32,000 bases of DNA from Candidatus Iainarchaeum sp. Lineage in GTDB: Archaea; Iainarchaeota; Iainarchaeia; Iainarchaeales; 0-14-0-20-30-16. How positions within the stretch are numbered: the first letter of the stretch is position 1; every line of letters starts with the position of its first letter. Shown piece by piece: positions 6,680 through 30,900 of the stretch. The notes under the pieces are model-generated. The model worked only from the letters and a program-made list of their open reading frames with translations. It had not been told where the DNA came from and did no database searches. The translations under genes were made by a program, and so were the position numbers. Location of the stretch: positions 22,635-54,634 of the forward strand of contig JAQTTP010000006.1 in NCBI GenBank assembly GCA_028710695.1, given 5' to 3'.

Positions 6680-6701
6680 GTGATGCCATCGCCGTGATTT
6701 T

Positions 6702-7923: not shown

Positions 7924-7925
7924 AT

Positions 7926-8756: not shown

Positions 8757-9836
8757 TTATTTTTTGTCTGATTCTTTTTTCTCTTCCTTCTTTTTTGGTG
8801 GCTCCAAATCCAAATTTAGATTTAGATCTAAATCGCCTAAATCATTATCAGAAATCTTTTTGTCTAAATTAAAATTAGGTAAATCCATGTTTAGATCAAA
8901 TGGGTTTGTTTCTTCTTTCTTTTCTTCCTTTTTAGTGTCCTTTTCTGCTGGCTTGTCTTCTCCAGTGCCTTGTATTTTCTTGATTTCTTCATCTCTTGTA
9001 AGCTGAGTAAAAATATTATCTACAATTTGGTTTATTTCTCCTCTTTGGTTTGGCTCTCTGTTGTGTCTATCTCTGAACCGTTCTACTTCGACTTCTGTTA
9101 TTTTTTCGATTTCTTCCTTTGGCTTATTCAAATCAGTTTTCTCTTTTACTTGGCTGTAAATTACATCTATAATATTATCACGTAATTCTCTTGGAGTTTC
9201 TAGTTCTTCATCAGTATTTGGTTTGCCTTTTAATTCTTTAAGCCTTTCTCTGTAATGCCTTGAGCTTGGATCTGTTTCAGTGGCTTGGCTTTGTTCTTTG
9301 TCTTGGGGTTCACCAGGCCTATAAAATCTTCGTAATCTTCTTGGTATTTCAGAAACATCTTTATCTTTGTAGTTTTGTGGATTTTCGATAACTTTATCTG
9401 GTTCTACAGTCTTTTTTTCTTCCTGTTCGGCAAGTTTTATATTTTCTTCTTGTAATTTGCTTAATTCCTCTCCCAAATTTTCTTCAGGAGGCGCAAGCTG
9501 TATCGAGTTTTTTAATTGGCTCATAAGTTTGTCAACTTCACTAAAACTAGAATCTACTGTTGGTTCTGGGGCTTTAGTGGGTGCCAAATCCTTGCTAGTA
9601 AGAGTCAAATCCTTTCCTGATTCTTCTTTGTTTTGGTTTACTTTGTCCTTTGATTTAGATTCATTTTTTATTTCTTGTTTTTTTCCGCCTTTGCCATATA
9701 GCTCATCTATAACATCTCTTGCGATTTTTCTGGAATAACCTTCTGCCATAACCGCCTGAATGACTTCGTCTGTAGAATAGATGTTTTTGTAAGTTTGTAG
9801 AAGCTTAACTAAATTCTCAACTTCCTTTGAAGCCAT
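8757..9836 (-). CDS. Acidic, E/K-rich, largely disordered protein with a UBA-like N-terminal helical module and a C-terminal D-L-N repeat tail
   Basis: N-terminus: MASKEVENLVKLLQTYKNIYSTDEVIQAVMAEGYSRKIARDVIDELYG (three-helix pattern with an xEGY loop, as in UBA-type domains). About 280 aa of charged low-complexity sequence follows. The tail is FDLNMDLPNFNLDKK...LGDLDLNLNLDLEPPKKKEEKKESDKK. A TATA-like CTATATATAAATAA sits at 9852-9865 just upstream. Confidence 0.7.
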   Translation of the reverse strand: MASKEVENLVKLLQTYKNIYSTDEVIQAVMAEGYSRKIARDVIDELYGKGGKKQEIKNESKSKDKVNQNKEESGKDLTLTSKDLAPTKAPEPTVDSSFSEVDKLMSQLKNSIQLAPPEENLGEELSKLQEENIKLAEQEEKKTVEPDKVIENPQNYKDKDVSEIPRRLRRFYRPGEPQDKEQSQATETDPSSRHYRERLKELKGKPNTDEELETPRELRDNIIDVIYSQVKEKTDLNKPKEEIEKITEVEVERFRDRHNREPNQRGEINQIVDNIFTQLTRDEEIKKIQGTGEDKPAEKDTKKEEKKEETNPFDLNMDLPNFNLDKKISDNDLGDLDLNLNLDLEPPKKKEEKKESDKK

Positions 9837-9851
9837 AACAACACCTGCGAA

Positions 9852-9886
9852 CTATATATAAATAATAGTTAACTATTTAAAGAATA
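9852..9886. promoter_or_regulatory. Divergent promoter region (two TATA-like boxes)
   Basis: The 64-73 nt divergent gap holds CTATATATAAATAA (9852-9865, serving the minus gene starting at 9836) and ACTATTTAAAGAATA (9872-9886, serving the plus gene at 9901/9910). Confidence 0.4.
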
Positions 9887-9909
9887 TTTGTGTTTTTATA
9901 TTGATATAT

Positions 9910-10404
9910 ATGGAAATTACTTTTATAGGCATTCTGTACTCAATTTTGTACTGGGCTTGTTTTTCCGCCGTATTATTTTTTTTAATACTGCTTTTTGGGC
10001 ATTTTTATAAGGCTTTTGACGAAAAGTTGAAAATAAAAGATATTTTCAAGTATTTTTTGTTTACCTTGATCATATCCTACATAGTTTTGATATTGGCTTA
10101 TTTCCTTCCTGCGGCATTTGGGGTAAAACTTGAGTTTATTGCATTTTATACTACTTGGTACATGTACCTGTATGTTGTAATTGTAATTTTGCTGAAGCTT
10201 TTGCTTTATGCATTGGTACTATCAGTAATTCTTCAACCAGTAATTTTACTTGGGATTTTCCTTTATAGATACTTTGTTGAAAAAAATTCTAACGAGTTAT
10301 TGTCAAAATTTTATGTTTCAGTGATAATATCATTTGTGATTAGTTTGATATTGTATATCTTCCCTTGGATTCTGGGCGGAATGATTGCAATGGTGTATTT
10401 TTAG
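9910..10404 (+). CDS. Small polytopic membrane protein (about 5 TM), unknown function
   Basis: Almost entirely hydrophobic helices (ILYSILYWACFSAVLFFLILLF, FLFTLIISYIVLILAYFL, YMYLYVVIVILLKLLLYALVLSVIL, VISFVISLILYIFPWILGGMIAMVYF). Its TAG stop (10402-10404) overlaps the GGTGAT RBS of the next gene. TTG 9901 is an alternative start. Confidence 0.65.
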   Translation: MEITFIGILYSILYWACFSAVLFFLILLFGHFYKAFDEKLKIKDIFKYFLFTLIISYIVLILAYFLPAAFGVKLEFIAFYTTWYMYLYVVIVILLKLLLYALVLSVILQPVILLGIFLYRYFVEKNSNELLSKFYVSVIISFVISLILYIFPWILGGMIAMVYF

Positions 10405-10412
10405 GTGATTTG

Positions 10413-13400
10413 ATGGACTACAAACAAATATTCATGTACTTTGTTATTTTGAATATCTTTTTTTCTGCAATTGCTTTCTCTTATGTTCCGCCATCAGATT
10501 ATATGGGGCAGAACTCTTGTAAAACTGAAAGGCTAAGCCCTGAGGAAATAAATATTCTATGGGATGAATATTTGAGAACTGGCTTTACCCCAAATCAAAT
10601 AATTTCGGGGACTCCTGAAGAATTAAAAAATTCTGAAAAAACAGTTGAAAAAAAAGATTTTAATAAAGATGCGACTTTTACATCTATAGTTGATGATAAA
10701 GCAATAACTGCAGATGTGAGGACAGATCAAAAAATCCCTTATAACTCCTATATATTTAACAAAGTTATTGATGGAGACTATGCTTATGGTGTATTCCTAA
10801 ATGATTCTTTGAGAATTGGGCGATGTAAAGATGGTACAATTGGTTGTGCAGTTACTTCTGATAATAATGGGCTATATCTTAGAAATTCAGATGGCGCAAT
10901 TAAAACTTTTACTGAAGGTGTAAAATCTTTTTTTACAGGGGATGAAATAAAACAAAAAGACGCATATGGTGCCGGAGTAGTTAATCAAGAAGAAATAAAA
11001 GATAAAGTGGATTTAAGTCAAGCAGATGCTCAACAAGATATTAATGTTGTGAAATTTACTCACGAGCTTCAAGAAAAGCCAATGAGCAGTTTTTTAGTTG
11101 ATGATTTTTCATCAGAATTTATGATGCTGTGTAATAATCAAGATTCGGACAGCAGATGTAGAGTTTTGTTGTATTCTTTTTTTGATAAAAGATATAATGC
11201 CTATTATTCAGGCAGTCTAATATCTATTGCTGGTGGCCCAATTGCTTGGGGTGCAGTAAGCAAAGTATTTGGTGGTTTTGCATCATTCAAATATGGTGCG
11301 ATGGTAACAAAAGCAGTAAAAAAAGTTACAGATCCAGCAAAGCAATTATTGAAAGATACCTGGTATAAATTAATTGCAAAAGATTTCGGATATTTTTCAA
11401 AAAATGTAGGGGACACAGTGCTTAAAGCAACACAAAAAGGAGGCATTGGTGGTAGCCTGAAAGTTTTAGGGGATAATGCTTATGAAATTGTTCCTGCTAA
11501 ACTTGTTGCAGCAATTCAAAAAGATATGGTTCCAGGTTTGACTACTGCCCAAGCAAAGGAAGCCATTGGGGATGTAGTAGTTGCAAGAGCATCAGCAGCA
11601 GATTATGGACGAGGATTTTTAGAATCTGTCTCTGGAGAGTCTGATGTTTTTATTAAAAGAGCAGCTGCTATTGAGGCGGCAGATAAAGCACCAGTATTGC
11701 TTGGTGCACAAATGAATGATACTTTTTTGAATGAAAATTTTGCAGGATGGGTTGTAGATACTGCGGGTGGATCTGTTGCAGCAATGAAACCAATAACAAA
11801 ATTTGATATTGCCCCAAAATTTTTAAAGGGAGAAATAGATCCAAGCAAAATTTATAAACTTGCGGCAGGTGGAACAGCAGCAGAAGGTGTTGCACTTTCA
11901 GATTTAAAGAACTTTTTGAAAAGTAATCCTTCAGAAGAATACCTTGTTGAAATTGCTGGGACTTCAGTTCCCCTAAATGCCTCAACTGTAGATGCAGTAA
12001 AAGATGCGGCAGCAAAAGAGGGTATTGGAAGCCTTAGTATACTCACCGCAAGCAGGACCCCCATCGATTTTGGTAAATTTGGCGGCTATGAAGGGTTTAA
12101 ACAGAAATTTGCAAAAGACTACTATGATTTTGTAAAATACAAATACACTACTGCTGCAAATAATTATGATACAATTATGAACACTTTGCAAGGCGCAAAA
12201 GCAATGCCTACAAGAAATGCAAATGCAATGAACTTCTTTATGAAATTGTGGGCTGGGAAAGGAAGTGCAATTGGTGGCCTTGTAAGGCTTGAAGCTATTC
12301 CAACAATGTATTGGATGGCAAAAACAGGAGAGTTTGGAGATACTTTTAAAGCATATATGATTAAAGAGCAAGATCTGACAACAATAAAAACATACACTGG
12401 CGCAGATAGCTTGTATAACAGTGCATATATGGATATTTTTTCTAGAGAAGGAAGCAATAATGGAGATATGTTTTCTAAAGTTATTGACTATATAGTGTTT
12501 ATTGACAACATTGGATTATTGTCTAATGAAATGGAACAAAGCATAAAGTCTTTCTTTAGTCACCAGTTTAGAGACGAGCCCGAAGATTTAGTATTTTATA
12601 ATGAAGCACTAAAATGTGGTAAAGGTGCTTGTACTATATCTCTAAATAAACAAGCAGCAAAAGAAAAAATAGAAAACACAGATGTTGTTTCAGGAAAAGA
12701 TGTTGATATAATAAATGATAAAATACATGTGAACACTCAATCATTGCAAGGAACAAAAAATTATGTTGTTGAATTCCCAGACCCAGTTCCATCTGATGAC
12801 CCAGACCCAGGATATACTTTGAGTGCATTCGTGCATAGAATGAATATTGTTGGAAAAGATGGTGAAATAAATTTGGCATCAGCACTAGCACAAAAAGAAG
12901 ATTGTGTAAGTAAAGCAAAAGGCCTAACTATTGTTGGTATTCCATTTGGTAGCATGTTTGCATCTGATGTTGATCCATCTAAATTTGCAATACCTTTGGG
13001 AATAGTTGATAACTCAATTGGTTTAGCTCTTACTGGAATTCCTGGATTGGCATTGAGTGTAGTATCGTCTATACTAATAATGGAACAAGTTCAAGAACAA
13101 GTTGGAAATTGTGTAGATATTGTTGATGGATACTATGTTACTGACTCACTGATTCCTTACCAAGACATGAATGATTCTTTAATGTCTAAGATTGGCGGTG
13201 TGGCATCTAAAGGAGAAAAAGAAACAGAGAAATCTCTTCTGGAAGGAACACCTCTTGATAAAATCGCAACTACAATAAAAGACCAATTTAATAAAATAAT
13301 AAGCAATAAAACACATGAAGCAATACAGATAAATGTTGAAACAAAAGGAAAAACTAATGGATCTGTTTATGCGGAAGATATCTTCCTGATTTGGGAAGGT

Positions 13401-14747
13401 GGAAATGCAAGTCAGATAAATCTAAAGTATGATGATAAATCGTACACAACTTTAAAAGATAAAGACGGGAAAACAGCAATAATAGATAATGAGAAAGGGA
13501 TTTTTGAAATAAATGGAAAGCAAATTAATAATCCGGATCTTGTAAGATTAATGAAAAGAAATAATAGGGGCCCGTTCTATAGTATGCCTGTTGCAGTAAC
13601 TGTATTTTCAGCAAACAGTGTTGGAAATATGTTTGAAGCACACACAAATGGTGATTTTTTAGTAAAGGATCCAAGCATACTTGATTGTATTAGAGCTGGA
13701 GTGTTTGAGCAAACTGGAATGACTATGATGGGCAACTCTTTGTATGAACATATGGGCCCAGTTACAGAAATCTTGGTTGAATCTGGAACAATAATTAGAC
13801 CAAGTTTGTATGGTTCTGAAAACCAATTCTCAATGGAAGGAACAACTATTGGAAGAATTCCTATGCCTAATTCAACACTTACTGTTAAAGGTGATAGAAC
13901 TGTAGTAATTAAGAACGCACAAAAGTCTTACGAATTAGATGGTGTTGTTGGTATTGCCTTTGAAAAAGGATCAATTGTTTACAAAGCGCAAACAAATGAA
14001 TTTATTATGTGGATAGAAAACATGGCACAAATTGATGGAAAATATATTTCTAATTTGATGTCAAATCACAACCCCCAAATAAATGAAGAAACTGGTTGTG
14101 AAGAAGATGCATTTGATTTGAAATTAGCTCCAATTCCCGGAGATGTAACTGCGGAAGAAGAAGTTGGAAAGATGAATATTGCTTTAGAAAAAGCAGGCCC
14201 ATTCCAATACTTCCAGACTCCAAAATATAATATAATTTTCTATTCAAAAATGGAAAGTGGGGTTTGTAAAAAATATATGAAAGTTGTAGACAGAGAAACT
14301 GGAAGAGTAATAAGTGATGCAGAAGTAACAAGCGTTACAAAAACTCCAGATGGTTATAAAGTTACAACTGCGGATGGAAAAACACATGATATCGGATTTG
14401 AAGTTGCAAATGGGAAGCCGATATTGTCTTATAATGGAGACAAGCAGCCTTTGCTAATTGCACAAGGAAAAGATGGTGCATTCTATTACGATCCAAGTAC
14501 AGGAAAATGGTATGTTGATAATGCACAAGTATTGCCAATAGATGATGACTTTAAGTTACATGGGTCTGCAACACAAGGAAATAATACATATCCGTCTGAT
14601 AACCCAATAAGTGGGGCTTTAAGTCCATCAGATAGTTCAAAATCAAGTTGGGATATTCCATTAACTGGAAGTCTATTAGCTTCAGGATTAGTAATGTTAG
14701 TAAGTAGTATGTTTGTATATTTGTACTTTAAGAGGGAGGATGAGTAA
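10413..14747 (+). CDS. Orphan 1,444-aa secreted/membrane protein with an N-terminal signal peptide and a C-terminal IPLTG-TM-KREDE sorting-signal-like anchor
   Basis: ATG 10413 is preceded by AGGTGAT (10403-10409), and the ORF-track start at 10365 overlaps the upstream gene. The signal peptide is MDYKQIFMYFVILNIFFSAIAFS. Internal Gly/Ala-rich hydrophobic segments include LISIAGGPIAWGAVSKVFGGFA and IGLALTGIPGLALSVVSSILIM. The Ser-rich stalk SGALSPSDSSKSS is followed by WDIPLTG-SLLASGLVMLVSSMFVYLYF-KREDE. I recognise no enzymatic motif. Confidence 0.8.
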   Translation: MDYKQIFMYFVILNIFFSAIAFSYVPPSDYMGQNSCKTERLSPEEINILWDEYLRTGFTPNQIISGTPEELKNSEKTVEKKDFNKDATFTSIVDDKAITADVRTDQKIPYNSYIFNKVIDGDYAYGVFLNDSLRIGRCKDGTIGCAVTSDNNGLYLRNSDGAIKTFTEGVKSFFTGDEIKQKDAYGAGVVNQEEIKDKVDLSQADAQQDINVVKFTHELQEKPMSSFLVDDFSSEFMMLCNNQDSDSRCRVLLYSFFDKRYNAYYSGSLISIAGGPIAWGAVSKVFGGFASFKYGAMVTKAVKKVTDPAKQLLKDTWYKLIAKDFGYFSKNVGDTVLKATQKGGIGGSLKVLGDNAYEIVPAKLVAAIQKDMVPGLTTAQAKEAIGDVVVARASAADYGRGFLESVSGESDVFIKRAAAIEAADKAPVLLGAQMNDTFLNENFAGWVVDTAGGSVAAMKPITKFDIAPKFLKGEIDPSKIYKLAAGGTAAEGVALSDLKNFLKSNPSEEYLVEIAGTSVPLNASTVDAVKDAAAKEGIGSLSILTASRTPIDFGKFGGYEGFKQKFAKDYYDFVKYKYTTAANNYDTIMNTLQGAKAMPTRNANAMNFFMKLWAGKGSAIGGLVRLEAIPTMYWMAKTGEFGDTFKAYMIKEQDLTTIKTYTGADSLYNSAYMDIFSREGSNNGDMFSKVIDYIVFIDNIGLLSNEMEQSIKSFFSHQFRDEPEDLVFYNEALKCGKGACTISLNKQAAKEKIENTDVVSGKDVDIINDKIHVNTQSLQGTKNYVVEFPDPVPSDDPDPGYTLSAFVHRMNIVGKDGEINLASALAQKEDCVSKAKGLTIVGIPFGSMFASDVDPSKFAIPLGIVDNSIGLALTGIPGLALSVVSSILIMEQVQEQVGNCVDIVDGYYVTDSLIPYQDMNDSLMSKIGGVASKGEKETEKSLLEGTPLDKIATTIKDQFNKIISNKTHEAIQINVETKGKTNGSVYAEDIFLIWEGGNASQINLKYDDKSYTTLKDKDGKTAIIDNEKGIFEINGKQINNPDLVRLMKRNNRGPFYSMPVAVTVFSANSVGNMFEAHTNGDFLVKDPSILDCIRAGVFEQTGMTMMGNSLYEHMGPVTEILVESGTIIRPSLYGSENQFSMEGTTIGRIPMPNSTLTVKGDRTVVIKNAQKSYELDGVVGIAFEKGSIVYKAQTNEFIMWIENMAQIDGKYISNLMSNHNPQINEETGCEEDAFDLKLAPIPGDVTAEEEVGKMNIALEKAGPFQYFQTPKYNIIFYSKMESGVCKKYMKVVDRETGRVISDAEVTSVTKTPDGYKVTTADGKTHDIGFEVANGKPILSYNGDKQPLLIAQGKDGAFYYDPSTGKWYVDNAQVLPIDDDFKLHGSATQGNNTYPSDNPISGALSPSDSSKSSWDIPLTGSLLASGLVMLVSSMFVYLYFKREDE
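14655..14744 (+). other. C-terminal tripartite sorting-signal-like segment (IPLTG motif, 20-aa hydrophobic helix, charged tail)
   Basis: Codons att cca tta act gga (14655-14669) give IPLTG. They are followed by SLLASGLVMLVSSMFVYLYF and KREDE-stop. Confidence 0.55.
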
Positions 14748-14748
14748 A

Positions 14749-14874
14749 ATGGCAGTAGTTAGAAAACCTTTACCAAAAGCACCTGGTTTTGCAATAAAGA
14801 AAACAATAACTGGTCCAAGAGGAACTGGTAGAAAAGGCAATGTTATTCAATTAGCAAAAGCAAAAAGAAGATAA
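14749..14874 (+). CDS. 41-aa highly basic peptide, translationally coupled to the giant gene
   Basis: Manual translation: MAVVRKPLPKAPGFAIKKTITGPRGTGRKGNVIQLAKAKRR*. The ATG lies 1 nt after the upstream TAA, with GGAGGATGA at 14735-14743 acting as a Shine-Dalgarno inside the upstream gene's end. It is below the ORF-track cutoff. Confidence 0.45.
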   Translation: MAVVRKPLPKAPGFAIKKTITGPRGTGRKGNVIQLAKAKRR

Positions 14875-14910
14875 GTCATAAAAAAGGACTTATTCTTCTT
14901 CTTTTTTATT
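14873..14910 (+). terminator. Short hairpin plus T-tract between convergent genes
   Basis: AAGTC-(9 nt)-GACTT (14873-14891), then ttcttcttcttttttatt. Confidence 0.4.
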
Positions 14911-14927
14911 TGTCTATTAAAAAATAC

Positions 14928-15617
14928 CTAAATTATATTGTGTCCTGCATACTCTTTTTCTTTCATATCCTTTAATTGAGTATTTACTATTCCACTTAGT
15001 TTCTTTGATTCCGCAAGCAATGGCTTGTTGTCTATGTTTAAATTGTACATTTTATTTAGAAGCCCAATTGCTTTTGCAGCTGCATCGTAATTTTTTGTTT
15101 GCAAAAACGGAACTAAAATTAGAAAGATTGGATAATCTTTTTCAAGAATAAAGAATTGTGCACCAATTCCTGCTGTGATTCCTTCTTTTATTTTTTGAAT
15201 ATTGTATTTTTCTAAATAAGTTAAATTCTTTTTGTTGTTTGCAACTCCTAAAATTGTTTCATTATTGTCTATTATTCCACCAATTGAAAGTATTCTGTCC
15301 ATTTTTGATTTCTTTGCCCAATGTAGGACAATATTACAATAGCTTTTCAAATCCTCTTTTTGAATTATTTGGTCAGAAATTATACAAATAAGTTTGTGCT
15401 TGTGGGAAACATAAGCCCTTATTGGGTGCTGTGGAATCCCGTTCTCAATTTTTACTATTGGTGTTGTATTGTCGTGTTCGAAATGGCCTAGATAGTCCAT
15501 TTTTAGGTTTTCAATTAAGTATTTTGTAGTAATAGAACTAATTAAATCTGCAGAAGGAAACCCCTCTATTAGAGTGTAACCCTTGTAATTTTTGTTAGAC
15601 TTAAAGAATAGACCCAT
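14928..15617 (-). CDS. PAC2-family proteasome assembly chaperone-like protein
   Basis: The N-terminal pattern YTLIEGFPSADLISSITTKYLIENLKMDYLGHFE....PIVKIENG....PIRAY matches the remembered PAC2/COG1938 pattern (xLIEGxPGxGxVGxxAxxYLIxxL...). There is no C-terminal HbYX motif (it ends ...AGHNII). Confidence 0.6.
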   Translation of the reverse strand: MGLFFKSNKNYKGYTLIEGFPSADLISSITTKYLIENLKMDYLGHFEHDNTTPIVKIENGIPQHPIRAYVSHKHKLICIISDQIIQKEDLKSYCNIVLHWAKKSKMDRILSIGGIIDNNETILGVANNKKNLTYLEKYNIQKIKEGITAGIGAQFFILEKDYPIFLILVPFLQTKNYDAAAKAIGLLNKMYNLNIDNKPLLAESKKLSGIVNTQLKDMKEKEYAGHNII

Positions 15618-15640
15618 AGCAATTCACCATTAGTTTTACG

Positions 15641-15705
15641 ATAGATTATAGCAATTACCTATATAAATATATTCCTATAAATAGGATATATAATAACTAT
15701 TTATG
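15641..15705. promoter_or_regulatory. Divergent A/T-rich promoter region
   Basis: CCTATATAAATATATT (15658-15673) and ACTATTTATG (15696-15705, 28 nt before the rpl15e ATG) lie in the 106-nt divergent gap. Confidence 0.4.
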
Positions 15706-15723
15706 AATTAAGAGTGTGATAGC

Positions 15724-16323
15724 ATGTCATTTGCAAAACAATTCAAGAAAGTGTCAGTTAAGATAAGAAAAAAGGATAAAGATGCAGATTATGATTACAA
15801 AAAGTTGTATTCTGATAAGATGATTGCTTTAAGAAAGAAAAAAGCAAGCGTTGTTAAATTGGCTAAACCAACAAACCCAGTAAGAGCAAGAGAACTTGGC
15901 TACAAGGCAAAACAAGGAGTAGTTGTGGCTATGGTAAAAATAAGAAAAGGAACTGGTGCCTTTTCAAGGGTAAATAAAGGAAGAAAGCCAAAGAGAACAG
16001 GATACTTAAAATTAACTAGGAAAGTTTCAATCCAGAAGATGGCTGAGCAAAGAGCAGGTACTAAGTTTAGTAACTGTGAAGTTTTGAATAGCTATTGGGT
16101 TGGAGAAGATGGTAAGGATAAGTACTACGAAGTTATTTTACTAGAAAGATCTCACCCTGTAATCTTAGCAGACAAGAACTATGTGGGCGTAGTTAACCAG
16201 AAGAGAAGAGTATTTAGAGGATTGACTTCTGCAGGAAAGAAAGGAAGAGGATTAGCAAACAAAGGAAAAGGAACTGAGAAGAATAGACCATCTATAAGAG
16301 CAAAAGGAAGAAAAGCAAAGTAA
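15724..16323 (+). CDS. rpl15e: 50S ribosomal protein L15e
   Basis: PTNPVRARELGYKAKQGVVVAMVKIRKG, RKPKR...LTRK, AEQRAGTKFSNCEVLNSYWVGEDGKDKYYEVILL are typical eL15 blocks. Confidence 0.93.
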   Translation: MSFAKQFKKVSVKIRKKDKDADYDYKKLYSDKMIALRKKKASVVKLAKPTNPVRARELGYKAKQGVVVAMVKIRKGTGAFSRVNKGRKPKRTGYLKLTRKVSIQKMAEQRAGTKFSNCEVLNSYWVGEDGKDKYYEVILLERSHPVILADKNYVGVVNQKRRVFRGLTSAGKKGRGLANKGKGTEKNRPSIRAKGRKAK

Positions 16324-16350: not shown

Positions 16351-17193
16351 TTATTTTTTCATTTCTCTTTTTCTAAATTCTTGTCCTAATTCTCTGCCCA
16401 TTTTTGAGAGATAGGCTTTGTACTCTTTTTCTAGCCAGAATTTTATCTTTGGATTGTAATCAGATTCTCTTGCGGTCACGATTTCTGGTTCTGCATCCAT
16501 TGGCCCACTTGTTCTTTTTAGAACCCCCCCTCGTCCAGCATAACCTTTGGAATTTTCAGACCTTTTTGGTTTGCTAAGCCTTGTGGTTGAATTAAAATCT
16601 TCTTCTTGGATATTATGGTATGTTGCATTTGGTAAACCTAGCCTTTGTAGCTCTTGGCCAATTGCATCTATTGTATTTTTGCTTACAATAAGATCTAATA
16701 CAAAAAATCTTGGCTTTTTAATTCTTTTAACAACTTCTGGAATTCTTGCGATTGCAGTAGAACTGGGGATACAAGTGCCTGTTTGGCGTTCAAGTGTAGA
16801 AATGTATAATACTGGGCCCAATCTATACCTTTTTAGTTCTCTATAAACATCAGGAAATGCTTCCACAAGGGCAGTATGAAATAAGTGCCCTGCAATTCTC
16901 ATGGATGTATCTGGGAGCAATATAATTGGTGTTTGGCCTTGTGCAATAGAGCTTTTTGCAGCAGCAAGCAACTCATTTGTGGATTTTTGGATGTACTGCA
17001 AATCTTTTTTTTCATAGATTTTCCGTCGTAAATTTTTTAATCTGTCAGCGGATGTTGATTCGCCGTGTTTTTCAGTTAATTCTATATATCTTCTTGATTT
17101 CCATCTATCTTCTGGACAAGTAGAGTTTTCTTCTAATTTTCTGCGTTTTTCTAGAAGTCCGCGAATAAATGTAGTTGCTCTTTTTAGTACCAT
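16351..17193 (-). CDS. Hypothetical 280-aa protein, possibly a degenerate phosphoribosyltransferase-like fold
   Basis: I place the start at Met71 of the track ORF (MVLKRATTF..., cat at 17191-17193). The longer 350-aa version overlaps rnp3 and encodes junk-like sequence. A PRPP-loop-like string PRFFVLDLIVSKNTIDAIGQEL is present. The function call is weak. Confidence 0.55.
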   Translation of the reverse strand: MVLKRATTFIRGLLEKRRKLEENSTCPEDRWKSRRYIELTEKHGESTSADRLKNLRRKIYEKKDLQYIQKSTNELLAAAKSSIAQGQTPIILLPDTSMRIAGHLFHTALVEAFPDVYRELKRYRLGPVLYISTLERQTGTCIPSSTAIARIPEVVKRIKKPRFFVLDLIVSKNTIDAIGQELQRLGLPNATYHNIQEEDFNSTTRLSKPKRSENSKGYAGRGGVLKRTSGPMDAEPEIVTARESDYNPKIKFWLEKEYKAYLSKMGRELGQEFRKREMKK

Positions 17194-17248
17194 ATAAGAA
17201 ATAATAACTTTACTAAAGAATAAAAGCTTTCGGGTTGTTAGTTTTATT

Positions 17249-17803
17249 ATGATTTTTGATTTTATTGGCTCTGAACTCAAGGGCAAGCTTGGCAAGGAAA
17301 AGGAAAGCCAAACTATTTTTCTTTCAGGCATATATTCTAAAGAAATGAATAATAAAAAACACTGTCTTGTTGTAGATGTTTCTAAGAATAAGAATGAATT
17401 CAAAAGAACAGGAAATTATGGGTGCTATGTTGGGGCCAAAGTTGGATCTCTAAAAGATGTGTTCTTTTGTTTGGATAAAAAATTAGATTTTATAATAAAT
17501 CCTTTTAACTATAAAACAAAATTCTTTGATAATTCTACAATAACTGTTATGAAGCAAAGAAATTTGTTTCCATTGATTTTCTTGGATGAATATCTTGAGT
17601 TGAGCAAAGGCCAACAAATTGGATTTTTGAAAAATGCTTTTTTGCTTGTGGATCTTGCAAAAAAACAATCAATACCTGTGCTTATTGCCTCTGGCGCAAA
17701 TGAGCCTTGGCAAGTAATTTATAATAATGAATTTTTGTATCCTTTATTTAATATAAAAATAGAACAAGCAAATAATTTTTTTAATATTTTAGAAAGAAAG
17801 TGA
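17249..17803 (+). CDS. rnp3: RNase P protein component 3 (Rpp30 family)
   Basis: MIFDFI start, FIINPF, an IPVLIASGANEPWQV block (the SGA motif of Rpp30 TIM-barrel proteins), and position immediately upstream of Pop5. Confidence 0.7.
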   Translation: MIFDFIGSELKGKLGKEKESQTIFLSGIYSKEMNNKKHCLVVDVSKNKNEFKRTGNYGCYVGAKVGSLKDVFFCLDKKLDFIINPFNYKTKFFDNSTITVMKQRNLFPLIFLDEYLELSKGQQIGFLKNAFLLVDLAKKQSIPVLIASGANEPWQVIYNNEFLYPLFNIKIEQANNFFNILERK

Positions 17804-17823: not shown

Positions 17824-18162
17824 ATGAAGAGAAAATTGAATCCCTTGCCATTGTCTTTGAGAGAAAAGAAAAGATATCTTTTATTTTCTATGAATAAAGT
17901 AGAAAATTTTGAAAACATAATTAATAGTTATGTGCGGTCTTTTTTTGGAACTTATTTTATGGCACAAATGGAATTCAGGATTTTGAAGAGTAAAGAGAAA
18001 AAAAAGAGAATTTATTTTGTTGTAAAAGCATCTAGAGATGAATTTGAAAAAATAATTGCTGCTTTGGAATTATTTAAAAAATCAAATGAAATTATGTTGG
18101 ACATAAAGTTAGAAAAAGTTAGTGGAACAATAAAGACAATAAATGAAATCTTGGAGGAGTAA
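17824..18162 (+). CDS. rnp2: RNase P protein component 2 (Pop5 family)
   Basis: PLPLSLREKKRYLLF near the N-terminus and KVSGTIKTI near the C-terminus match archaeal Pop5 signatures (LPPTLRxKxRYIxF ... VSGTIK). Confidence 0.85.
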   Translation: MKRKLNPLPLSLREKKRYLLFSMNKVENFENIINSYVRSFFGTYFMAQMEFRILKSKEKKKRIYFVVKASRDEFEKIIAALELFKKSNEIMLDIKLEKVSGTIKTINEILEE

Positions 18163-18163
18163 A

Positions 18164-18958
18164 ATGATCCAAAGAAAGAAAGTTGGGCTTGCATTAGGTG
18201 GTGGAGGCTCAAAAGGATTTGCACATATTGGTGTCTTGCAAGTTTTTGAAGAAGAAGGCATTCCAGTAGATTATATTTGTGGAACTTCTATTGGATCTTT
18301 AATTGGTGGCCATTATTCTTTGTATAAAGATATAGATCATCTAAAATCTGATGCCTTTTCGTTTTTGAAAGAAAATGATTTAGACTTATTTAGTTTGTTA
18401 AAACCTGGATATGAGAAAACACTAAAAAATTTACAGTTCTTTTTAGAATCTGTATATAGGGATCATAGGTTTTCTGACACAAAAACCCCTTTTTCTTGTA
18501 CTGCAGTGAATATAGAAAATGGTGCTTTATTAGATATCGATGACGGAAGACTTATTGATGCAATTTTTGCAAGTATGAGTATTCCAGGTCTGTTTCCTGC
18601 AAGATTTTTTTGGGGTTCTTGGCTAGTTGATGGCGGGGTACTAAATAATTTGCCAGTAGATATTGTTGCAAAAAAAGGTTATGATGTTGTTATAGGCTGC
18701 GATCTAGGGGACATTGAAGCTCTAAAACAAATAGAGGCAAAACCAACAAGAATAGATGCTTTGAAAAGGTCATTTATTATCATGTCTGATGATTTGACAG
18801 CAAGAATAAAAAAATCAGTTCCAAATGCAATAATAATAAATCCAAAAATAGTTGTTTCAACACTGAGATTTGATTATGCTTTGTCTAAAAAACAAATTGT
18901 TGAGGGCGAAAAATCAGCAAGAGCAAAAATAGATGAAATTAAGAAGAGGCTAAAGTGA
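18164..18958 (+). CDS. Patatin-like phospholipase
   Basis: Oxyanion/Gly-rich loop GLALGGGGSKGFAHIGV, nucleophile elbow GTSIGSLIGG (GxSxG), and catalytic Asp motif LVDGGVLNNLP. ATG 18164 is preceded by GGAGGAG (18153-18159) and lies 1 nt after the rnp2 stop. Confidence 0.88.
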   Translation: MIQRKKVGLALGGGGSKGFAHIGVLQVFEEEGIPVDYICGTSIGSLIGGHYSLYKDIDHLKSDAFSFLKENDLDLFSLLKPGYEKTLKNLQFFLESVYRDHRFSDTKTPFSCTAVNIENGALLDIDDGRLIDAIFASMSIPGLFPARFFWGSWLVDGGVLNNLPVDIVAKKGYDVVIGCDLGDIEALKQIEAKPTRIDALKRSFIIMSDDLTARIKKSVPNAIIINPKIVVSTLRFDYALSKKQIVEGEKSARAKIDEIKKRLK

Positions 18959-19515
18959 TTCTTTTGCAGAAAAAACAAAACATTTTTGAGAAGGTAAGGC
19001 ACTATGCACATAACAAAGGCAAAAATAAAAAGTCATTAACTATTTTTTCAAAGATATTTGTATTTTTAATCTCATTTTTGTTTGCATTTTTAATTCTATA
19101 TCTTATTTTTGAATACTTTAACTTATACTATTATGTTTCTTTGTTTTTTTCTTACCTAGTTTACAATTTTTTCAGTTCGAGCTTTCAAAATATTACAATG
19201 ATTGGAACAACAGTAGACTTTTCTACTTTCCAAATTAATATAACTGATGTTTGTTCTGGAGCTTATGAATTAATTGTATTTATTTCTTTGATATTTGCTT
19301 GCTTTGAAATTAAGTTGTGGAAAAGGGCAGTAGGAATTTTAACATACCTTCTGGTGTTTGTAATTTTTAATTTGGTAAGAATGATAATAGTAATTTATTC
19401 TCTGGGGATTTTTGATTTGATGTCAGTAGATATCTTACACACAGTTTTATTCAAATTTGGATTTTGGATATTTACATTATTGTTCTTTGTATACTTTTTG
19501 ATTTTTGCAGAATAA
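18955..19515 (+). CDS. Minimal (186-aa) exosortase/archaeosortase-family transpeptidase
   Basis: Polytopic membrane protein with INITDVCSGAYELIVF (Cys100, tgt 19252-19254), FNLVRMIIV (the N-x-x-R motif, Arg142, aga 19378-19380) and DILHTVLFKFG (His162, cac 19438-19440). These are the Cys/Arg/His triad context of the exosortase/archaeosortase family. The GTG start overlaps the patatin stop (GTGA). Confidence 0.72.
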   Translation: MILLQKKQNIFEKVRHYAHNKGKNKKSLTIFSKIFVFLISFLFAFLILYLIFEYFNLYYYVSLFFSYLVYNFFSSSFQNITMIGTTVDFSTFQINITDVCSGAYELIVFISLIFACFEIKLWKRAVGILTYLLVFVIFNLVRMIIVIYSLGIFDLMSVDILHTVLFKFGFWIFTLLFFVYFLIFAE

Positions 19516-19632: not shown

Positions 19633-20160
19633 TTAAGCCAACCAGATTCCTATTTGGAATACTGCAACAATTAAAACTATCTTTAGAAGTTGATATTTAT
19701 TGAAAATTAGCATAAGAAAAGTGAATAATTTTAAAGGAATTACAAAGATTGTATTTATAAGAAATAAAGGAATTTGCATAAGGAAATGTTTCTGGGCAAT
19801 ACCTTTGTAGATTGAAACTATTTTTGCGTCTACATTTTGGATATCTTTTTTACTTGGGACAGATTGGAAAATAATTGTTACTGCAAGCCACAAAATTATT
19901 ACAAAAAAATAAAACTCTGGGCGAAATTTCACTGCGTACCAAATTCCAAGTGTGGCAATTATGTTACTAAAAAGAAAAGGGGCAATAGCAATGATTATTG
20001 TTTTCCAATCGTGTACATCATGGTGTTGTACATATGATTCTTTTAATCCAAATTTTACTTTTGTTACTTTTACACCTAATAACATACAGGCAAGAAAGTG
20101 TGTGAACTCATGAATTATTACTCCTGGATAAAATAATAATTCTAAGAACATTTTTACCAC
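19633..20160 (-). CDS. Membrane-embedded HExxH protein (M50B-like/DUF3267-like putative metalloprotease)
   Basis: PGVIIHEFTHFLACMLLGVKVTKVKFG at the N-terminus, followed by 4-5 hydrophobic helices. The GTG start (or ATG 20151) abuts the bud32 stop. Confidence 0.55.
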   Translation of the reverse strand: MVKMFLELLFYPGVIIHEFTHFLACMLLGVKVTKVKFGLKESYVQHHDVHDWKTIIIAIAPFLFSNIIATLGIWYAVKFRPEFYFFVIILWLAVTIIFQSVPSKKDIQNVDAKIVSIYKGIAQKHFLMQIPLFLINTIFVIPLKLFTFLMLIFNKYQLLKIVLIVAVFQIGIWLA

Positions 20161-27970: not shown

Positions 27971-27998
27971 TCACGCACGCACGCGCTTTGGTGATTTT

Positions 27999-30900
27999 AT
28001 GGGTTTAGGCGAATTTTTTGGAAAAATAAACGAGAAAATGAATGCTGGTTTTGACAGTATTATTGCTTTTTTGGATGAAAAAGGCATTCCTGCACAAAAG
28101 TATGCTGACTTTTTGGAAGAAAAAGGAATCCCCGCAATGTGGTTTACTCTTTTAATCATCGCCTTGATTATAGCTGTAATTGTTTTACTAGTAACCGTTG
28201 TATTCGCCTCAAGTGTAACCCTAAATCTATCTATAATGACTGATGATGGAACAACCCCAAGTTCAGTATTTTTGAATATTACTGGTTTGGATGGCGAGAT
28301 TTTTTTGTCTGAGCAGGTTCAAAATGGAACGCAGGTAAAAATAAAAGGAATTGGAGTTGGAGATTCTCTGTTCTTAAATTCAAGTTTGGAAGGATATAGC
28401 TTTACCTCCCCCTCAGAACTACCTATCTCTGAAAAAGAGATGTTGGTATCTTTGATTTTTGAAAAACAAGAAAAAACTGGAAAAGTAAGTTTTAAAGTAA
28501 TTAATGGTGAAGAACAGACAACTGTGGGAAGTGCAAAGCTTTCTATTTATGATGATGATGAGTTATTGGTAGAAGGGACTACTGATGAGTATGGTGGTTT
28601 TGATGCAGTACTGCCTTTGAAAAAAGTGAACTTGACAATTGACAGAGACGGATATGAACAATATACAAAGTCAGTTGAATTACTTGAAAATAAAGATTAT
28701 ATCTTCGAGCTTAGCCCCAAAGAATTTGATTCAAGTGAAGAGGGGTCTTTTAAGTTTGTTGTAAAGGATATGACACAAAATGCTTTGAATAATGTGAAGA
28801 TTGATGTTTATAATATAAAAACCAATGCAAAGCTTGGAAGTACAAATACAAATGAAGATGGTATTGGGGTATTTTCTGCAAAGAAAGGAACATCAATAAG
28901 ATTTGTTGCGCAGAAAGACGGATTTGCAGTATTTGACTCTAATGCAGAAGGAATCTCAAGAACTTTATTGACAGACGAAGAAGTTATTTCTTTTATGATG
29001 CCTATTGGTGGCGGAAAATTAAGTGTTATTGTGGTTGACTCTTTGGGTGTTGGAATTCAAGAAGCAAAAGTTTCTTTGTATACAACAATGCTTATTGAGC
29101 AATTAACACAAAATACCGATATTGGCGGGACAACAGATTTCTCTGGATTGGATTATACAATTTTGAAATACATTTCTGTTTATAGAGAAGGGTATTATCC
29201 ACAAACAAGATTATTGGACAGTACTTCTGAAATGAAATTTGAAATGGAAAAAGTAGATTTGTCAAAAGCAGCAATAGTTGATGTGTTTGTTATTGACAAA
29301 GATAATAAGCCAGTTGGAAGTGCAACGTTAGAATTTAAGTATGATGTTAACGGTGAATTATATCCAATAGCACATCCTAATCCAATTACATCTGTTACTG
29401 GTTATTTTACTTTTAACTTAAAACCAGATATTACTTTGACTGTGTCTGCAAATACAGACGACAAGTATGGTGAAGCATCTTTATTATTGAAAGCAGGAAG
29501 AAATAGAATTGATGTAAAAATGGAAAACACAGGAAGCAAATTTACAATGTACTTATACGACAAATATGGAAAGCCATTGGCAAATGCACATGTAATGCTT
29601 TTTGATAAACAAGGAAATTTAGTTTATGATGGATACACTGATGCAATGGGCAGAATTGAAGCAGACGCATTAGGAAACAAAGAATTGGATATGTTTGTTA
29701 CTGATGAAAATGGAAATACATACTCACAAACAATAAATCCAAAAGATAAAATGCAAATAAAACTGGATGATAATAAAAATAAAGACAAGTTATTTGTTTC
29801 TTTGTCTAAGGTAACTGACTTAGAAGGTAAAGAAGTCAGTGCTATGCAAAAAGGAAAAACTTATTTATTGGTATTTAATTTGTTTTGGCCAGAGGGGTTA
29901 TACTCTGGTGGGCTGCACATAAGATTGGGTTCAGATAGTGAAAAATATGTTGCAAATCAAGATGTGGGAATTATTGGATTTGATGGTGTTGCAGACAATT
30001 TCAAATATGGAATTAGTTATTCTCCATTACCTTTGCCAGGGGATTATTCAGTAGATTATTATTCTACTGGTGTTGCAGGGCAGTTTAACAAATGGTTAGA
30101 ATTATATTTCACAAATCCATCTGGAAATAGCAATTTGAAAGTAAGAGTAAAATCCAAAGCAACAACAGATCTGAACTCTATGGAAATAAGATACAGGGCT
30201 TGGACACAAGATACTAATGATGGCTTTACAAGAAACCCAGTAGACTCTATGTTGGGTACAAAAGAAAATATTACAACAAAATATAGTTTGTATGCAGACA
30301 CCTACCTAAAAGAACTTCAATTAATGGATGGGTCCTTGAATTGTGAAAATGATGTTTGTGTATCATATACAATTTTAGATGATCAATTTACTTATGATAT
30401 TGCAAAGTTCAATGGTGTGTTAGATTATTATTATGCCTTAGATTTAGAATTAACATCTATTATTGAACAACAAGTTTCTTTGTCTGTTCAGACAGAAGAT
30501 GATCCAAAACTTTATTTGAATAATTATTCTGAAAATATAACTGAGTTTTCTCCAAAAGATGAAAAAAATACAAAGCAAAATGTTCCAGTTGATATGTCTT
30601 CAATGGAGAAAAAGAAAGTAAGATTTTATTTCAACCCTTTCAAAGAAGGGCTTACAAATATTGTTGTGAAAACAATTACAACAAAAGGAGTAATTGAGAA
30701 AAATATTCCTGTAAATATTTTCCCTAAAAAAGAAATGGAAGTAATTTTGAATGCAGATTTTATCCCTCTTGGCGAAGACTTCCCAATAATAGTTAAGGAA
30801 AAAGGCGGAAATTATTTAACGAATGCAAAAATTACAATATTAAATAAAAAAACAAATAAGAATGCAATGTTTGTTGAAGGTACTGGCAAAGTTGACTTTG

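What the first reader, a model, noticed from the sequence alone, without database searches (positions are those of the whole stretch)
18164..19515. Patatin-like phospholipase overlapping a minimal 186-aa archaeosortase-family gene
The patatin gene has GGGGSKG, GTSIG and DGG motifs. The polytopic protein carries the exosortase/archaeosortase Cys (DVCSG), Arg (NLVR) and His (ILHT) contexts. The two genes overlap by 4 nt (GTGA), which implies co-translation. At 186 aa the sortase-like protein is much shorter than ArtA-type enzymes, which are roughly 300 aa as I recall. Archaeosortase A replaces a C-terminal anchor with a lipid. Pairing a lipid acyl-hydrolase/transacylase with a mini-archaeosortase is not an arrangement I know. 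It could be a lipid-scavenging or lipid-anchoring module, which would matter most if the organism cannot make its own lipids, as proposed for many DPANN archaea.
Basis: partly seen in the sequence, partly recalled or inferred. Interest (0 to 1): 0.7.

Follow-up and report, generated by a model that had tools for sequence, protein, structure and literature searches.

The report
Patatin lipase paired with mini-archaeosortase
A small DPANN-type archaeon keeps a lipid-cutting enzyme gene directly in front of a miniature "sortase" gene, whose family is known to trim and lipid-anchor surface proteins; the two genes are ordinary and already annotated, but their pairing is conserved across distant relatives and seems undescribed, hinting at a new helper for protein lipid-anchoring.

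Summary
The patatin gene (18164-18958) scores 121.5 bits against Pfam Patatin, and its GxGxxG, GxSxG and DGG motifs are invariant in orthologues. The 186-aa gene (18955-19515) passes the exosortase/archaeosortase signature model (35.1 bits, cutoff 23). Arg142 and His162 are invariant and Cys100 is at least 90% conserved across 89 relatives.

Small size is normal: about 140 relatives are mostly 150-220 aa, and curated short subfamilies exist. The 4-nt overlap says little: 10 of 18 same-strand gene pairs here lie 10 nt or less apart, and NCBI's start choice removes the overlap.

The adjacency is conserved. Patatin-then-sortase occurs in about ten lineages in three deep clades (sortases about 30% identical, patatins 36-46%), mostly with different flanking genes. 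The two gene trees agree, and the linked patatins form one clade (87.5% bootstrap). One lineage (L010) has precisely lost the patatin.

The host is labelled Ca. Iainarchaeum sp. (DPANN). One candidate substrate lies 4 kb upstream.

A functional link is plausible (about 0.45), by analogy with ArtA-PssA-PssD, but unproven. NCBI already annotates both genes; the pairing appears in no paper searched. This is a new variant of a known kind, of moderate interest.

The parts
18164..18958 (+). Patatin-like phospholipase gene (264 aa from ATG 18164; a 271-aa ORF from ATG 18143 is possible). Catalytic Ser codon 18287-18289 (GTSIG), catalytic Asp codon 18629-18631 (VDGG). No TM segment or signal peptide, so predicted cytoplasmic.
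   Evidence: Pfam Patatin 121.5 bits. 100% identical to NCBI MDD4983885.1. Catalytic motifs invariant in orthologues. No hydrophobic segment. Closest solved relative is the PlpD patatin domain, 5FQU, 142 bits.
18153..18157 (+). GGAGG ribosome-binding-like motif 6 nt upstream of ATG 18164. The Pop5 stop codon is at 18160-18162, 1 nt before the patatin start.
   Evidence: Read directly from the sequence.
18955..19515 (+). Minimal exosortase/archaeosortase-family gene (186 aa from GTG 18955; 183 aa from TTG 18964 in NCBI's call). Cys100 = 19252-19254, Arg142 = 19378-19380, His162 = 19438-19440.
   Evidence: TIGR04178 35.1 bits against cutoff 23. Triad conserved in 89 relatives. AlphaFold2 model pLDDT 90.8, pTM 0.79, five long helices plus a small three-strand element at 81-95. 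NCBI MDD4983886.1.
18955..18958 (+). GTGA: the candidate GTG start of the sortase overlaps the TGA stop of the patatin. A GAGG Shine-Dalgarno-like motif lies at 18946-18949.
   Evidence: Sequence. The overlap is not conserved in relatives, which have gaps of +4 to +23 nt.
10413..14747 (+). Candidate substrate: a 1444-aa secreted protein with an N-terminal signal peptide (MDYKQIFMYFVILNIFFSAIAFS) and a C-terminal tripartite tail.
   Evidence: Hydropathy and sequence. No Pfam or NCBIfam domain and no known CTERM model hit. Same gene called at 1444 aa in L011.
14643..14744 (+). C-terminal tail of the candidate substrate, SSWDIPLTGSLLASGLVMLVSSMFVYLYFKREDE: a motif, a TM helix and a charged tail, preceded by a Ser/Gly/Pro/Asn-rich linker.
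   Evidence: The orthologue in L019 ends SSWDIPLTDDWLLYGLVMLFSGMFVYLISRKDE. It is the only protein family with this architecture in all the DNA held.
19633..20160 (-). Convergent neighbour: polytopic membrane protein with an HExxH motif (IHEFTH), DUF3267 / Peptidase_M50B-like putative zincin. Conserved next to the sortase only in the window's own clade. Probably not part of the module.
   Evidence: Pfam DUF3267 29.5 bits and M50B 26.5 bits. tblastn finds it in clade A loci only.
17824..18162 (+). RNase P subunit Pop5/Rpp14 gene, ending 1 nt before the patatin start. An unrelated housekeeping gene, packed as tightly against the patatin as the patatin is against the sortase.
   Evidence: Pfam RNase_P_Rpp14 36.9 bits. 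Spacing table.

Best explanation
This is a conserved two-gene module in a small clade of DPANN archaea (labelled Ca. Iainarchaeum sp.). It consists of a cytoplasmic patatin-type Ser-Asp lipid acyl-hydrolase followed by a minimal archaeosortase-family membrane enzyme with four or five TM helices. The sortase corresponds to the C-terminal catalytic core of the 8-TM exosortases and keeps the Cys/Arg/His set. By homology with ArtA, it most likely recognises a C-terminal tripartite signal on Sec-secreted surface proteins, cleaves off the TM anchor through a Cys100 thioester intermediate, and passes the new C-terminus to a membrane-lipid nucleophile. The best candidate substrate is the 1444-aa protein 4 kb upstream, which ends SSWDIPLT-TM-KREDE. 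The patatin most likely acts on the lipid side of the same pathway, making or remodelling the acceptor lipid on the cytoplasmic face before it reaches the outward-facing active site. This would be analogous to PssA and PssD supplying archaetidylethanolamine for ArtA. Shown here: the identities of both enzymes, conservation of their catalytic residues, conserved adjacency and co-divergence. Inferred: the sortase's activity and topology, the substrate, any functional coupling, and the patatin's specific role. Rough sub-confidences: enzyme families 0.95; pair conserved beyond local synteny 0.85; functional coupling 0.45-0.5; acceptor-lipid supply specifically 0.2-0.25.
For: Family and catalytic residues. 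Confident fold model: pLDDT 90.8. In short relatives the Pfam EpsH model aligns only at positions 107-252 of 254, so they represent the catalytic core. Patatin directly upstream of the sortase, same strand and order, gap -4 to +23 nt, in clade A (window, L011, L012, L013, L003, L004, L001, L019, L002), clade B (L016, L017, L025) and clade C (L006-L009, L023, L024). The flanks differ: RNase P and zincin in A, a PDDEXK gene with MutS/MutL and a PHP-like gene in B, RFC or RadA with Lactamase_B/UDG in C. Every patatin of the clade whose downstream DNA is visible is followed by the sortase. The linked patatins form an exclusive clade among 126 patatins (bootstrap 87.5%), with the clade-specific motif F-x-W-G-x-W directly before the catalytic Asp. 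The sortase tree gives the same ((B,C),A) order. Precedent: artA lies next to pssA and pssD in Methanosarcina, and those enzymes are required for ArtA processing (PMC7157517). The candidate substrate tail is conserved in L019.
Against: L010 nests in clade B and keeps an intact sortase between the same two flanking genes but has no patatin, so adjacency is dispensable. Tight packing is generic in this genome. Part of the wider gene order (Bud32, 167-aa gene, S15, S3Ae, UPF0147) is also shared between the window and L023, so some conservation is inherited synteny. Patatins hydrolyse ester-linked acyl lipids, whereas canonical archaeal lipids are ether-linked (PMC12462473), so the substrate lipid is unclear. 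The patatin is cytoplasmic while the sortase's catalytic residues are inferred to lie near the outer leaflet. Only one candidate substrate was found, and its tail matches no curated sorting-signal model. Bootstrap support for monophyly of the linked sortases is only 43%. All lineages may belong to one narrow taxon. No fusion proteins were found.
Confidence: 0.45

Rival explanations
1. Both genes are real and active but functionally unrelated. A bacterial-type patatin was acquired once and landed upstream of the sortase in an ancestor of this clade. The pair has persisted through operon and gene-order inertia in compact genomes. The patatin would then serve general lipid turnover or use of ester lipids.
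For: Generic tight spacing, including the unrelated Pop5->patatin pair at 1 nt. The wider Bud32-S15-S3Ae block is also conserved between the window and L023. L010 lost the patatin while the sortase stayed intact. Named members of the 35-38% identity plateau outside the clade are bacterial (Deltaproteobacteria, Syntrophorhabdaceae, Dehalococcoidales, Bacillota), which suggests horizontal acquisition.
Against: The pair is the only adjacency retained in all four distinct genomic contexts, while everything else around it was reshuffled. In 8 of 8 visible cases the patatin is followed by the sortase. The trees are congruent. The clade-specific active-site-proximal motif suggests specialisation.
Confidence: 0.33
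2. The two are coupled, but the patatin acts after anchoring. It would remodel or deacylate the lipid anchor, or release anchored proteins, in the way lipid remodelling or phospholipase shedding acts on GPI-anchored proteins.
For: The same conserved-pair evidence. Analogies between C-terminal lipid anchoring, GPI anchors and phospholipase release are drawn in PMC6219818.
Against: The patatin has no signal peptide or TM segment, so it should not reach an anchor in the outer leaflet. There is no evidence for the anchor's chemistry.
Confidence: 0.08
3. The mini 'sortase' of this clade is not a protein-sorting enzyme. Together with the patatin it would form a membrane lipid-processing pair, for example handling scavenged lipids, with the Cys/Arg/His site acting on a lipid or small-molecule thioester.
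For: No multi-protein sorting signal could be demonstrated. The protein fits no curated subfamily that has a known cognate signal.
Against: From what I know of the family, every characterised or curated member is tied to C-terminal protein sorting signals. The signature region and triad are fully conserved. A plausible tripartite-tailed surface protein lies 4 kb away.
Confidence: 0.08
4. An anti-phage or toxin module with a patatin effector, like CBASS CapV-type phospholipases paired with a membrane partner.
For: Weak generic hits of the patatin to defence phospholipase models: PADLOC 40 bits or less, CBASS_lipase 36 bits.
Against: These scores are far below the cutoffs (36 against 200). There is no cyclase, sensor or other defence partner next to it. 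The partner is a bona fide sortase-family enzyme with no PADLOC hit. The locus is embedded in stable housekeeping synteny.
Confidence: 0.03

Closest known systems
Archaeosortase A (ArtA) with PssA/PssD in Haloferax volcanii and Methanosarcina
   Same: Same enzyme superfamily (TIGR04178 signature, conserved Cys/Arg/His). Same expected logic: removal of a C-terminal TM anchor from Sec/Tat-secreted surface proteins and transfer to a lipid. There is precedent for lipid-metabolism genes sitting next to the sortase gene and being needed for processing, and for that clustering being present in some lineages and absent in others (PMC7157517).
   Different: About 186 aa with 4-5 helices, against 277-303 aa for ArtA (gene lengths given in PMC7157517). 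No hit to the ArtA model and no PGF-CTERM substrates. The partner is a patatin-type acyl hydrolase, a degradative or remodelling enzyme for ester lipids, not the CDP-archaeol-dependent headgroup-synthesis enzymes PssA and PssD. No pssA or pssD gene was seen in the window.
Short archaeosortase/exosortase subfamilies curated in NCBIfam: ArtD (TIGR04175), pacearchaeosortase (NF033505), ArtE, XrtG, XrtX, XrtH, XrtM
   Same: Similar length (models of 150-187 positions), the same catalytic core, and archaeal/DPANN occurrence for pacearchaeosortase. The window protein's best subfamily hits are to these.
   Different: All scores are far below the cutoffs: pacearchaeosortase 19.2 against 80, ArtD 17.4 against 125, XrtG 10.5 against 102.75. 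The other clade members do no better (41 or less, and 33 or less). It is therefore an unmodelled subfamily. I know of no patatin association for any of these, and none appears in the literature searched.
Bacterial RssA/PlpD-type patatin-like phospholipases (COG1752, 'NTE family protein')
   Same: Full-length patatin domain with a GxGxxG oxyanion loop, GxSxG Ser and DGG Asp. Best equivalog-model hit is RssA (111.6 bits). Closest solved structure is the P. aeruginosa PlpD patatin domain (142 bits).
   Different: Below the RssA equivalog cutoff of 272. Forms its own clade with an F-x-W-G-x-W motif before the catalytic Asp that is essentially absent (1% or less) from 111 outgroup patatins. Encoded in an archaeon and always found upstream of a sortase gene.
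Rhombosortase/GlyGly-CTERM (Vibrio cholerae) and eukaryotic GPI transamidase
   Same: Works alike: a tripartite C-terminal signal is removed and the new C-terminus is joined to an ethanolamine-phosphate-containing lipid moiety (PMC6219818).
   Different: Non-homologous enzymes. This is a functional analogy only, and no accessory patatin is described for them.

Membership tests
Exosortase/archaeosortase family (TIGR04178; Pfam PF09721) | Signature-region HMM score above the curated cutoff | tested here: met
   TIGR04178 scores 35.1 bits against cutoff 23 over residues 95-182. All 89 aligned relatives also pass. Pfam PF09721 gave no hit in my scan, but is listed as 'weak' in the precomputed annotation of the identical protein.
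Exosortase/archaeosortase family (TIGR04178; Pfam PF09721) | Conserved Cys, Arg and His candidate catalytic residues | tested here: met
   R142 and H162 (and N139) are invariant, and C100 is at least 90% conserved, in 89 sequences down to about 16% identity. All three are invariant in the closer sets.
Exosortase/archaeosortase family (TIGR04178; Pfam PF09721) | Polytopic integral membrane protein | tested here: met
   Five hydrophobic segments. AlphaFold2 model with five long helices, pLDDT 90.8.
Exosortase/archaeosortase family (TIGR04178; Pfam PF09721) | Cognate C-terminal tripartite sorting signal shared by several proteins of the same genome | tested here: inconclusive
   Only one candidate was found (1444-aa protein, SSWDIPLT-TM-KREDE, conserved in L019) in 32 kb plus the loci. 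No curated CTERM model hit. The tail-only database search returned nothing. The whole genome was not available.
Exosortase/archaeosortase family (TIGR04178; Pfam PF09721) | Endopeptidase/transpeptidase activity on the signal | not testable with these tools
   Requires biochemistry or genetics.
Archaeosortase A (ArtA, TIGR04125) / PGF-CTERM system | ArtA equivalog-level HMM score, about 280-300 aa architecture, PGF-CTERM substrates | tested here: not met
   No ArtA hit for the window protein at E<=1. Its length is 186 aa. No PGF-CTERM hit on any surface protein scanned.
Pacearchaeosortase (NF033505) | HMM score at or above the curated cutoff of 80 bits | tested here: not met
   19.2 bits for the window protein. 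The best among clade members is 32.6 bits, in L023.
Archaeosortase D (TIGR04175) | HMM score at or above the curated cutoff of 125 bits | tested here: not met
   17.4 bits for the window protein. The other clade members score 41 bits or less.
Patatin-like phospholipase (Pfam PF01734) | Domain HMM above cutoff; Gly-rich oxyanion loop; GxSxG nucleophile; DG[GA] aspartate (Ser-Asp dyad) | tested here: met
   121.5 bits against cutoff 27.7. G19/G21/G25, G47-x-S49-x-G51 and D163-G164 (271-aa numbering) are invariant in six orthologues and at least 90% conserved in 126 homologues.
RssA equivalog (NF007623) | HMM score at or above the curated cutoff of 272 bits | tested here: not met
   111.6 bits.
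CBASS / anti-phage patatin effector systems | Effector model above cutoff, plus an adjacent cyclase, sensor or other defence partner | tested here: not met
   CBASS_lipase 36.3 bits against cutoff 200. PADLOC gives generic phospholipase hits of 40 bits or less, and none for the neighbours. The neighbours are RNase P, Bud32 and ribosomal protein genes.
ArtA-PssA-PssD type lipid-anchoring gene cluster | Sortase gene adjacent to pssA/pssD (archaetidylserine synthase/decarboxylase) homologues | tested here: not met
   None of the window genes scanned hits those families. The adjacent lipid enzyme is a patatin instead.

The most novel reading that the evidence does not exclude
The patatin is a dedicated accessory enzyme of a new archaeosortase system. 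It would deacylate or remodel an ester-linked phospholipid, possibly bacterial-type or scavenged, to produce the acceptor onto which the mini-archaeosortase transfers surface proteins. This would be the first C-terminal protein lipid-anchoring pathway described in DPANN archaea. It would also be the first to depend on an ester-lipid hydrolase, implying that these archaea use non-canonical ester lipids or lyso-lipid/glycerophospho-headgroup anchors.
Probability: 0.2. Interest if true: 0.8.

Novelty: new variant of a known kind. Interest (0 to 1): 0.45.

Why it matters
Archaeosortase-mediated C-terminal lipid anchoring has been studied experimentally only in Haloferax, where the chemistry of the anchor and the role of lipid-supplying enzymes are still being worked out. 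For DPANN archaea I found no study of it in the library searched. A gene pair linking a mini-archaeosortase to a lipid acyl-hydrolase, conserved over deep divergence, gives a concrete and testable lead. It could show which lipid such organisms use to tether surface proteins, and whether ester-type lipids play a part in archaea whose canonical lipids are ether-linked. The pair is small (about 450 aa in total), comes with a candidate substrate tail, and has a natural patatin-less variant, so heterologous tests are feasible. If the pairing is only inherited gene order, the finding reduces to a routine annotation of two known families.

Tried and rejected
(1) A tail-only search (55 aa) of the 5.8-billion-protein collection, to find unrelated proteins sharing the putative sorting signal, returned no candidates. 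This used a capped search for nothing.
(2) The A3 alignment was too diverse for the search for related loci. A4 found only one species-representative genome and seven metagenome loci.
(4) Defence-system reading: PADLOC gave only generic patatin hits, so I rejected it.
(5) Rosetta-stone fusions: the long sortase relatives P0017, P0137, P0110, P0052, P0029 and P0043 carry no patatin domain.
(6) The zincin-like DUF3267 neighbour as a third component: it is conserved only in the window's own clade, and in convergent orientation. I rejected it as a core part.
(7) More distant short sortases (P0010, P0011) have no adjacent patatin, so the pairing is specific to this clade.
(8) tRNA and Rfam scans of the window found nothing.
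(9) The 2012 paper by Haft and colleagues that defined the archaeosortase subfamilies is not held in the library. Statements about cognate signals of specific subfamilies therefore rest on secondary sources or on memory.
(10) I considered an alternative genetic code, because Logan gene calls on L011 read through TGA. I rejected it: long conserved ORFs are intact under table 11, and the patatin stop position is conserved with TAA or TAG in other lineages.
(11) I did not attempt a fused-chain complex prediction.
Full report
**What is there.** The window is a compact stretch of an archaeal genome, about 31-33% GC and about 93% coding. It is full of housekeeping genes: CysRS, CDC48, OGG, PAC2, r-protein L15e, RNase P p30-like and Pop5, Bud32, r-proteins S15 and S3Ae, and MgtE. 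At the reported coordinates there are two same-strand ORFs.
- The first ORF ends with TGA at 18956-18958. It most likely starts at ATG 18164, with GGAGG at 18153-18157, 1 nt after the Pop5 stop.
- The second runs from 18955 to 19515.
- Identical proteins are already in NCBI with consecutive accessions on a 54.6-kb MAG contig labelled "Candidatus ainarchaeum sp.". They are MDD4983885.1 (patatin-like phospholipase family protein, 264 aa) and MDD4983886.1 (exosortase/archaeosortase family protein, 183 aa).
- That label almost certainly means Ca. Iainarchaeum sp., in Iainarchaeota/Diapherotrites within the DPANN kingdom Nanobdellati.

**Checking the two identifications.**
- The patatin scores 121.5 bits on Pfam Patatin against a cutoff of 27.7.
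- Its oxyanion loop, GxSxG serine and DGG aspartate are invariant in six orthologues down to 36% identity. It has no hydrophobic segment, so it should be cytoplasmic.
- Its best equivalog-model hit is RssA (below cutoff). Its closest solved relative is the PlpD patatin domain.
- The 186-aa protein passes the exosortase/archaeosortase signature model, 35.1 bits against 23.
- An exhaustive profile search of 1.84 billion representative proteins found 140 relatives.
- In an alignment of 89 of them, N139, R142 and H162 are invariant, C100 and G102 are at least 90% conserved, and all 89 pass the signature model.
- AlphaFold2 with that alignment gives a confident model: pLDDT 90.8, with five long helices and a small three-strand element just before Cys100.
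- No solved structure resembles it by sequence or by Foldseek.
- The lysine-rich N-terminus and the KLWKR loop (residues 120-124) suggest an N-in topology. That would place Cys100, Arg142 and His162 in the outer half of the membrane. This is my inference and was not computed.

**What is not unusual.**
- Size. Most of the 140 relatives are 150-220 aa.
- NCBIfam already curates several short subfamilies: ArtD (150 model positions), pacearchaeosortase (167), XrtX (168) and XrtG (187).
- In short relatives the Pfam EpsH model aligns only at positions 107-252 of 254, so they are the catalytic core of the 8-TM enzymes.
- The window protein and its clade reach no subfamily cutoff, so they form an unmodelled subfamily.
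- Overlap. The GTGA overlap exists only if GTG 18955 is the start. NCBI uses TTG 18964, which leaves a 5-nt gap, and relatives have gaps of +4 to +23 nt.
- In this window 10 of 18 same-strand neighbour pairs lie 10 nt or less apart (median 8.5 nt). They include the unrelated pairs Pop5->patatin (1 nt) and cyclase->OGG (6 nt). The spacing alone therefore says little.

**What is notable: the pair is conserved.** Starting from the sortase, I found patatin-then-sortase, always on the same strand and in the same order, in three clades.
- Clade A is the window's own clade, with sortases 55-91% identical: L001, L003, L004, L011, L012, L013, L019 and L002.
- Clade B comprises L016 and L017. Clade C comprises L006-L009.
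- Starting from the patatin, the two further clade members I could inspect (L023/L024 and L025) are also followed by the sortase.
- The three sortase clades are only about 30% identical to each other. The patatins are 36-46% identical between clades.
- The flanks differ. Clade A has RNase P upstream and a zincin-like gene with Bud32 downstream. Clade B has a PDDEXK gene with MutS/MutL upstream and a PHP-like gene downstream. Clade C has RFC genes (L006), or RadA upstream with Lactamase_B and UDG downstream (L023).
- Among 126 patatins, the sortase-linked ones form an exclusive clade (bootstrap 87.5%). It is set against a broad plateau at 35-38% identity whose named members are bacterial.
- That clade carries a private F-x-W-G-x-W motif directly before the catalytic Asp: 100% within the clade and 1% or less outside it.
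- Among 136 sortase relatives, the linked ones also form an exclusive group. Bootstrap support is only 43% for the whole group but 96-100% for each clade. The ((B,C),A) order matches the patatin tree.
- The simplest history is a single acquisition of a bacterial-type patatin next to the sortase, followed by co-divergence.

**Limits on that inference.**
- L010 nests in clade B (51-54% identity) and shares both flanking genes with L016 (60% and 75% identity). It has no patatin, yet its sortase is intact.
- L005 is ambiguous because of a contig end.
- The window and L023 also share the block of Bud32, a 167-aa gene, S15, S3Ae and UPF0147. Some gene order is therefore simply inherited.
- The nearest outgroup sortases have no patatin next to them.
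- The whole group is rare. It comprises three clusters at 50% identity with E<=1e-10 in 1.84 billion representative proteins, and appears in one of 185,579 species-representative genomes.

**How it probably works.**
- In the ArtA model, a Cys thioester intermediate is resolved by the amine of archaetidylethanolamine, which PssA and PssD supply. [quoted passage not shown]
- By homology, the mini-sortase should cleave a C-terminal tripartite signal and transfer the protein to a lipid.
- The only candidate substrate in the DNA available is the 1444-aa protein at 10413-14747. It has a signal peptide and a Ser/Gly/Pro/Asn-rich linker, and ends SSWDIPLT, TM helix, KREDE. Its L019 orthologue keeps that tail.
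- No curated CTERM model matches it, and I could not show the signal on any second protein family.
- The patatin would act on the lipid side of the pathway. The open problems are what lipid it acts on, since canonical archaeal lipids are ether-linked, and how a cytoplasmic product would reach an outward-facing active site.
- I put functional coupling at about 0.45-0.5 and the specific acceptor-supply role at about 0.2-0.25.
- The main rival, at about 0.33, is that an unrelated neighbour has been retained through operon inertia.
- A defence-module reading is effectively excluded.

**Comparison and novelty.**
- Each gene is an ordinary member of a known family and is already annotated by NCBI.
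- The conserved pairing appears in no paper of the searched library: patatin+archaeosortase gave 0 papers and patatin+exosortase gave 0. The four papers holding both archaeosortase and phospholipase looked unrelated by title and abstract; I checked the text of two and neither links the two enzymes.
Diapherotrites belong to DPANN Cluster 1, reported to have more complete lipid pathways (PMC7414124).
- I rate this a new variant of a known kind, an archaeosortase system with a previously undescribed candidate accessory enzyme. Interest is moderate (0.45), because the link rests on comparative genomics alone.

Noticed in passing
window 6101-8690 (+): Four consecutive small genes (192, 208, 204 and 257 aa), each with a single N-terminal hydrophobic helix. 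At least two have prepilin-like KGQ/RGQ motifs before the helix. None has a significant Pfam or NCBIfam hit. This may be a type IV pilin-like cluster.
   Followed up: partly
window 9901-10404 (+) and 10413-14747 (+): A 167-aa polytopic membrane protein sits 8 nt upstream of the 1444-aa secreted, C-terminally anchored protein. Neither has any family hit, and both are conserved in L011. This may be a dedicated pair.
   Followed up: partly
window 27996-32000 (+), running off the end: A giant surface-type protein of more than 1334 aa with CarboxypepD_reg and Big_1/MG3-like domains. Its C-terminus lies outside the window, so I could not check whether it carries the same tail as the 1444-aa protein.
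   Followed up: no
L011 (Logan contig SRR22315508_4385), genes 9210-10043 and 13859-15874: The public gene calls read through TGA stops (patatin 277 aa, MgtE 671 aa), as if a TGA-sense code had been used. Under table 11 the genes end where their orthologues end, and other lineages have TAA or TAG at the same patatin stop. This looks like a gene-calling artefact on a low-GC contig.
   Followed up: partly
L010:1-875 compared with L016:4542-6318: A natural patatin-less variant. The same PDDEXK-family 141-aa gene and the same downstream PHP-like gene flank the sortase, with the PDDEXK stop overlapping the sortase GTG (GTGA again). It looks like a precise loss of the patatin ORF.
   Followed up: yes
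window 18605-18631 (patatin residues 148-156, numbered from ATG 18164): The clade-specific motif F-x-W-G-x-W-LVD lies directly before the catalytic Asp. It is present in all sortase-linked patatins and in 1% or less of 111 outgroup patatins. It may mark altered substrate specificity or a membrane- or partner-contacting loop.
   Followed up: partly
window 19633-20160 (-): A polytopic HExxH protein (DUF3267 / Peptidase_M50B-like putative zincin) convergent with the sortase. It is conserved there in clade A only. An M50-like gene also lies about 3 kb downstream of the sortase in L006. A role in clearing the cleaved TM remnants is conceivable but untested.
   Followed up: partly
window 16351-17403 (-): A 350-aa ORF (called at 280 aa in L011) with no family hit. 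With the long start it overlaps the 5' end of the RNase P p30-like gene. It is replaced by a different 423-aa gene in L012.
   Followed up: no
window 102-1229 (+): A membrane-anchored adenylate/guanylate cyclase with a partial CHASE2 sensor domain, cut by the start of the window. This is an unusual signalling gene for a small DPANN-type genome.
   Followed up: no
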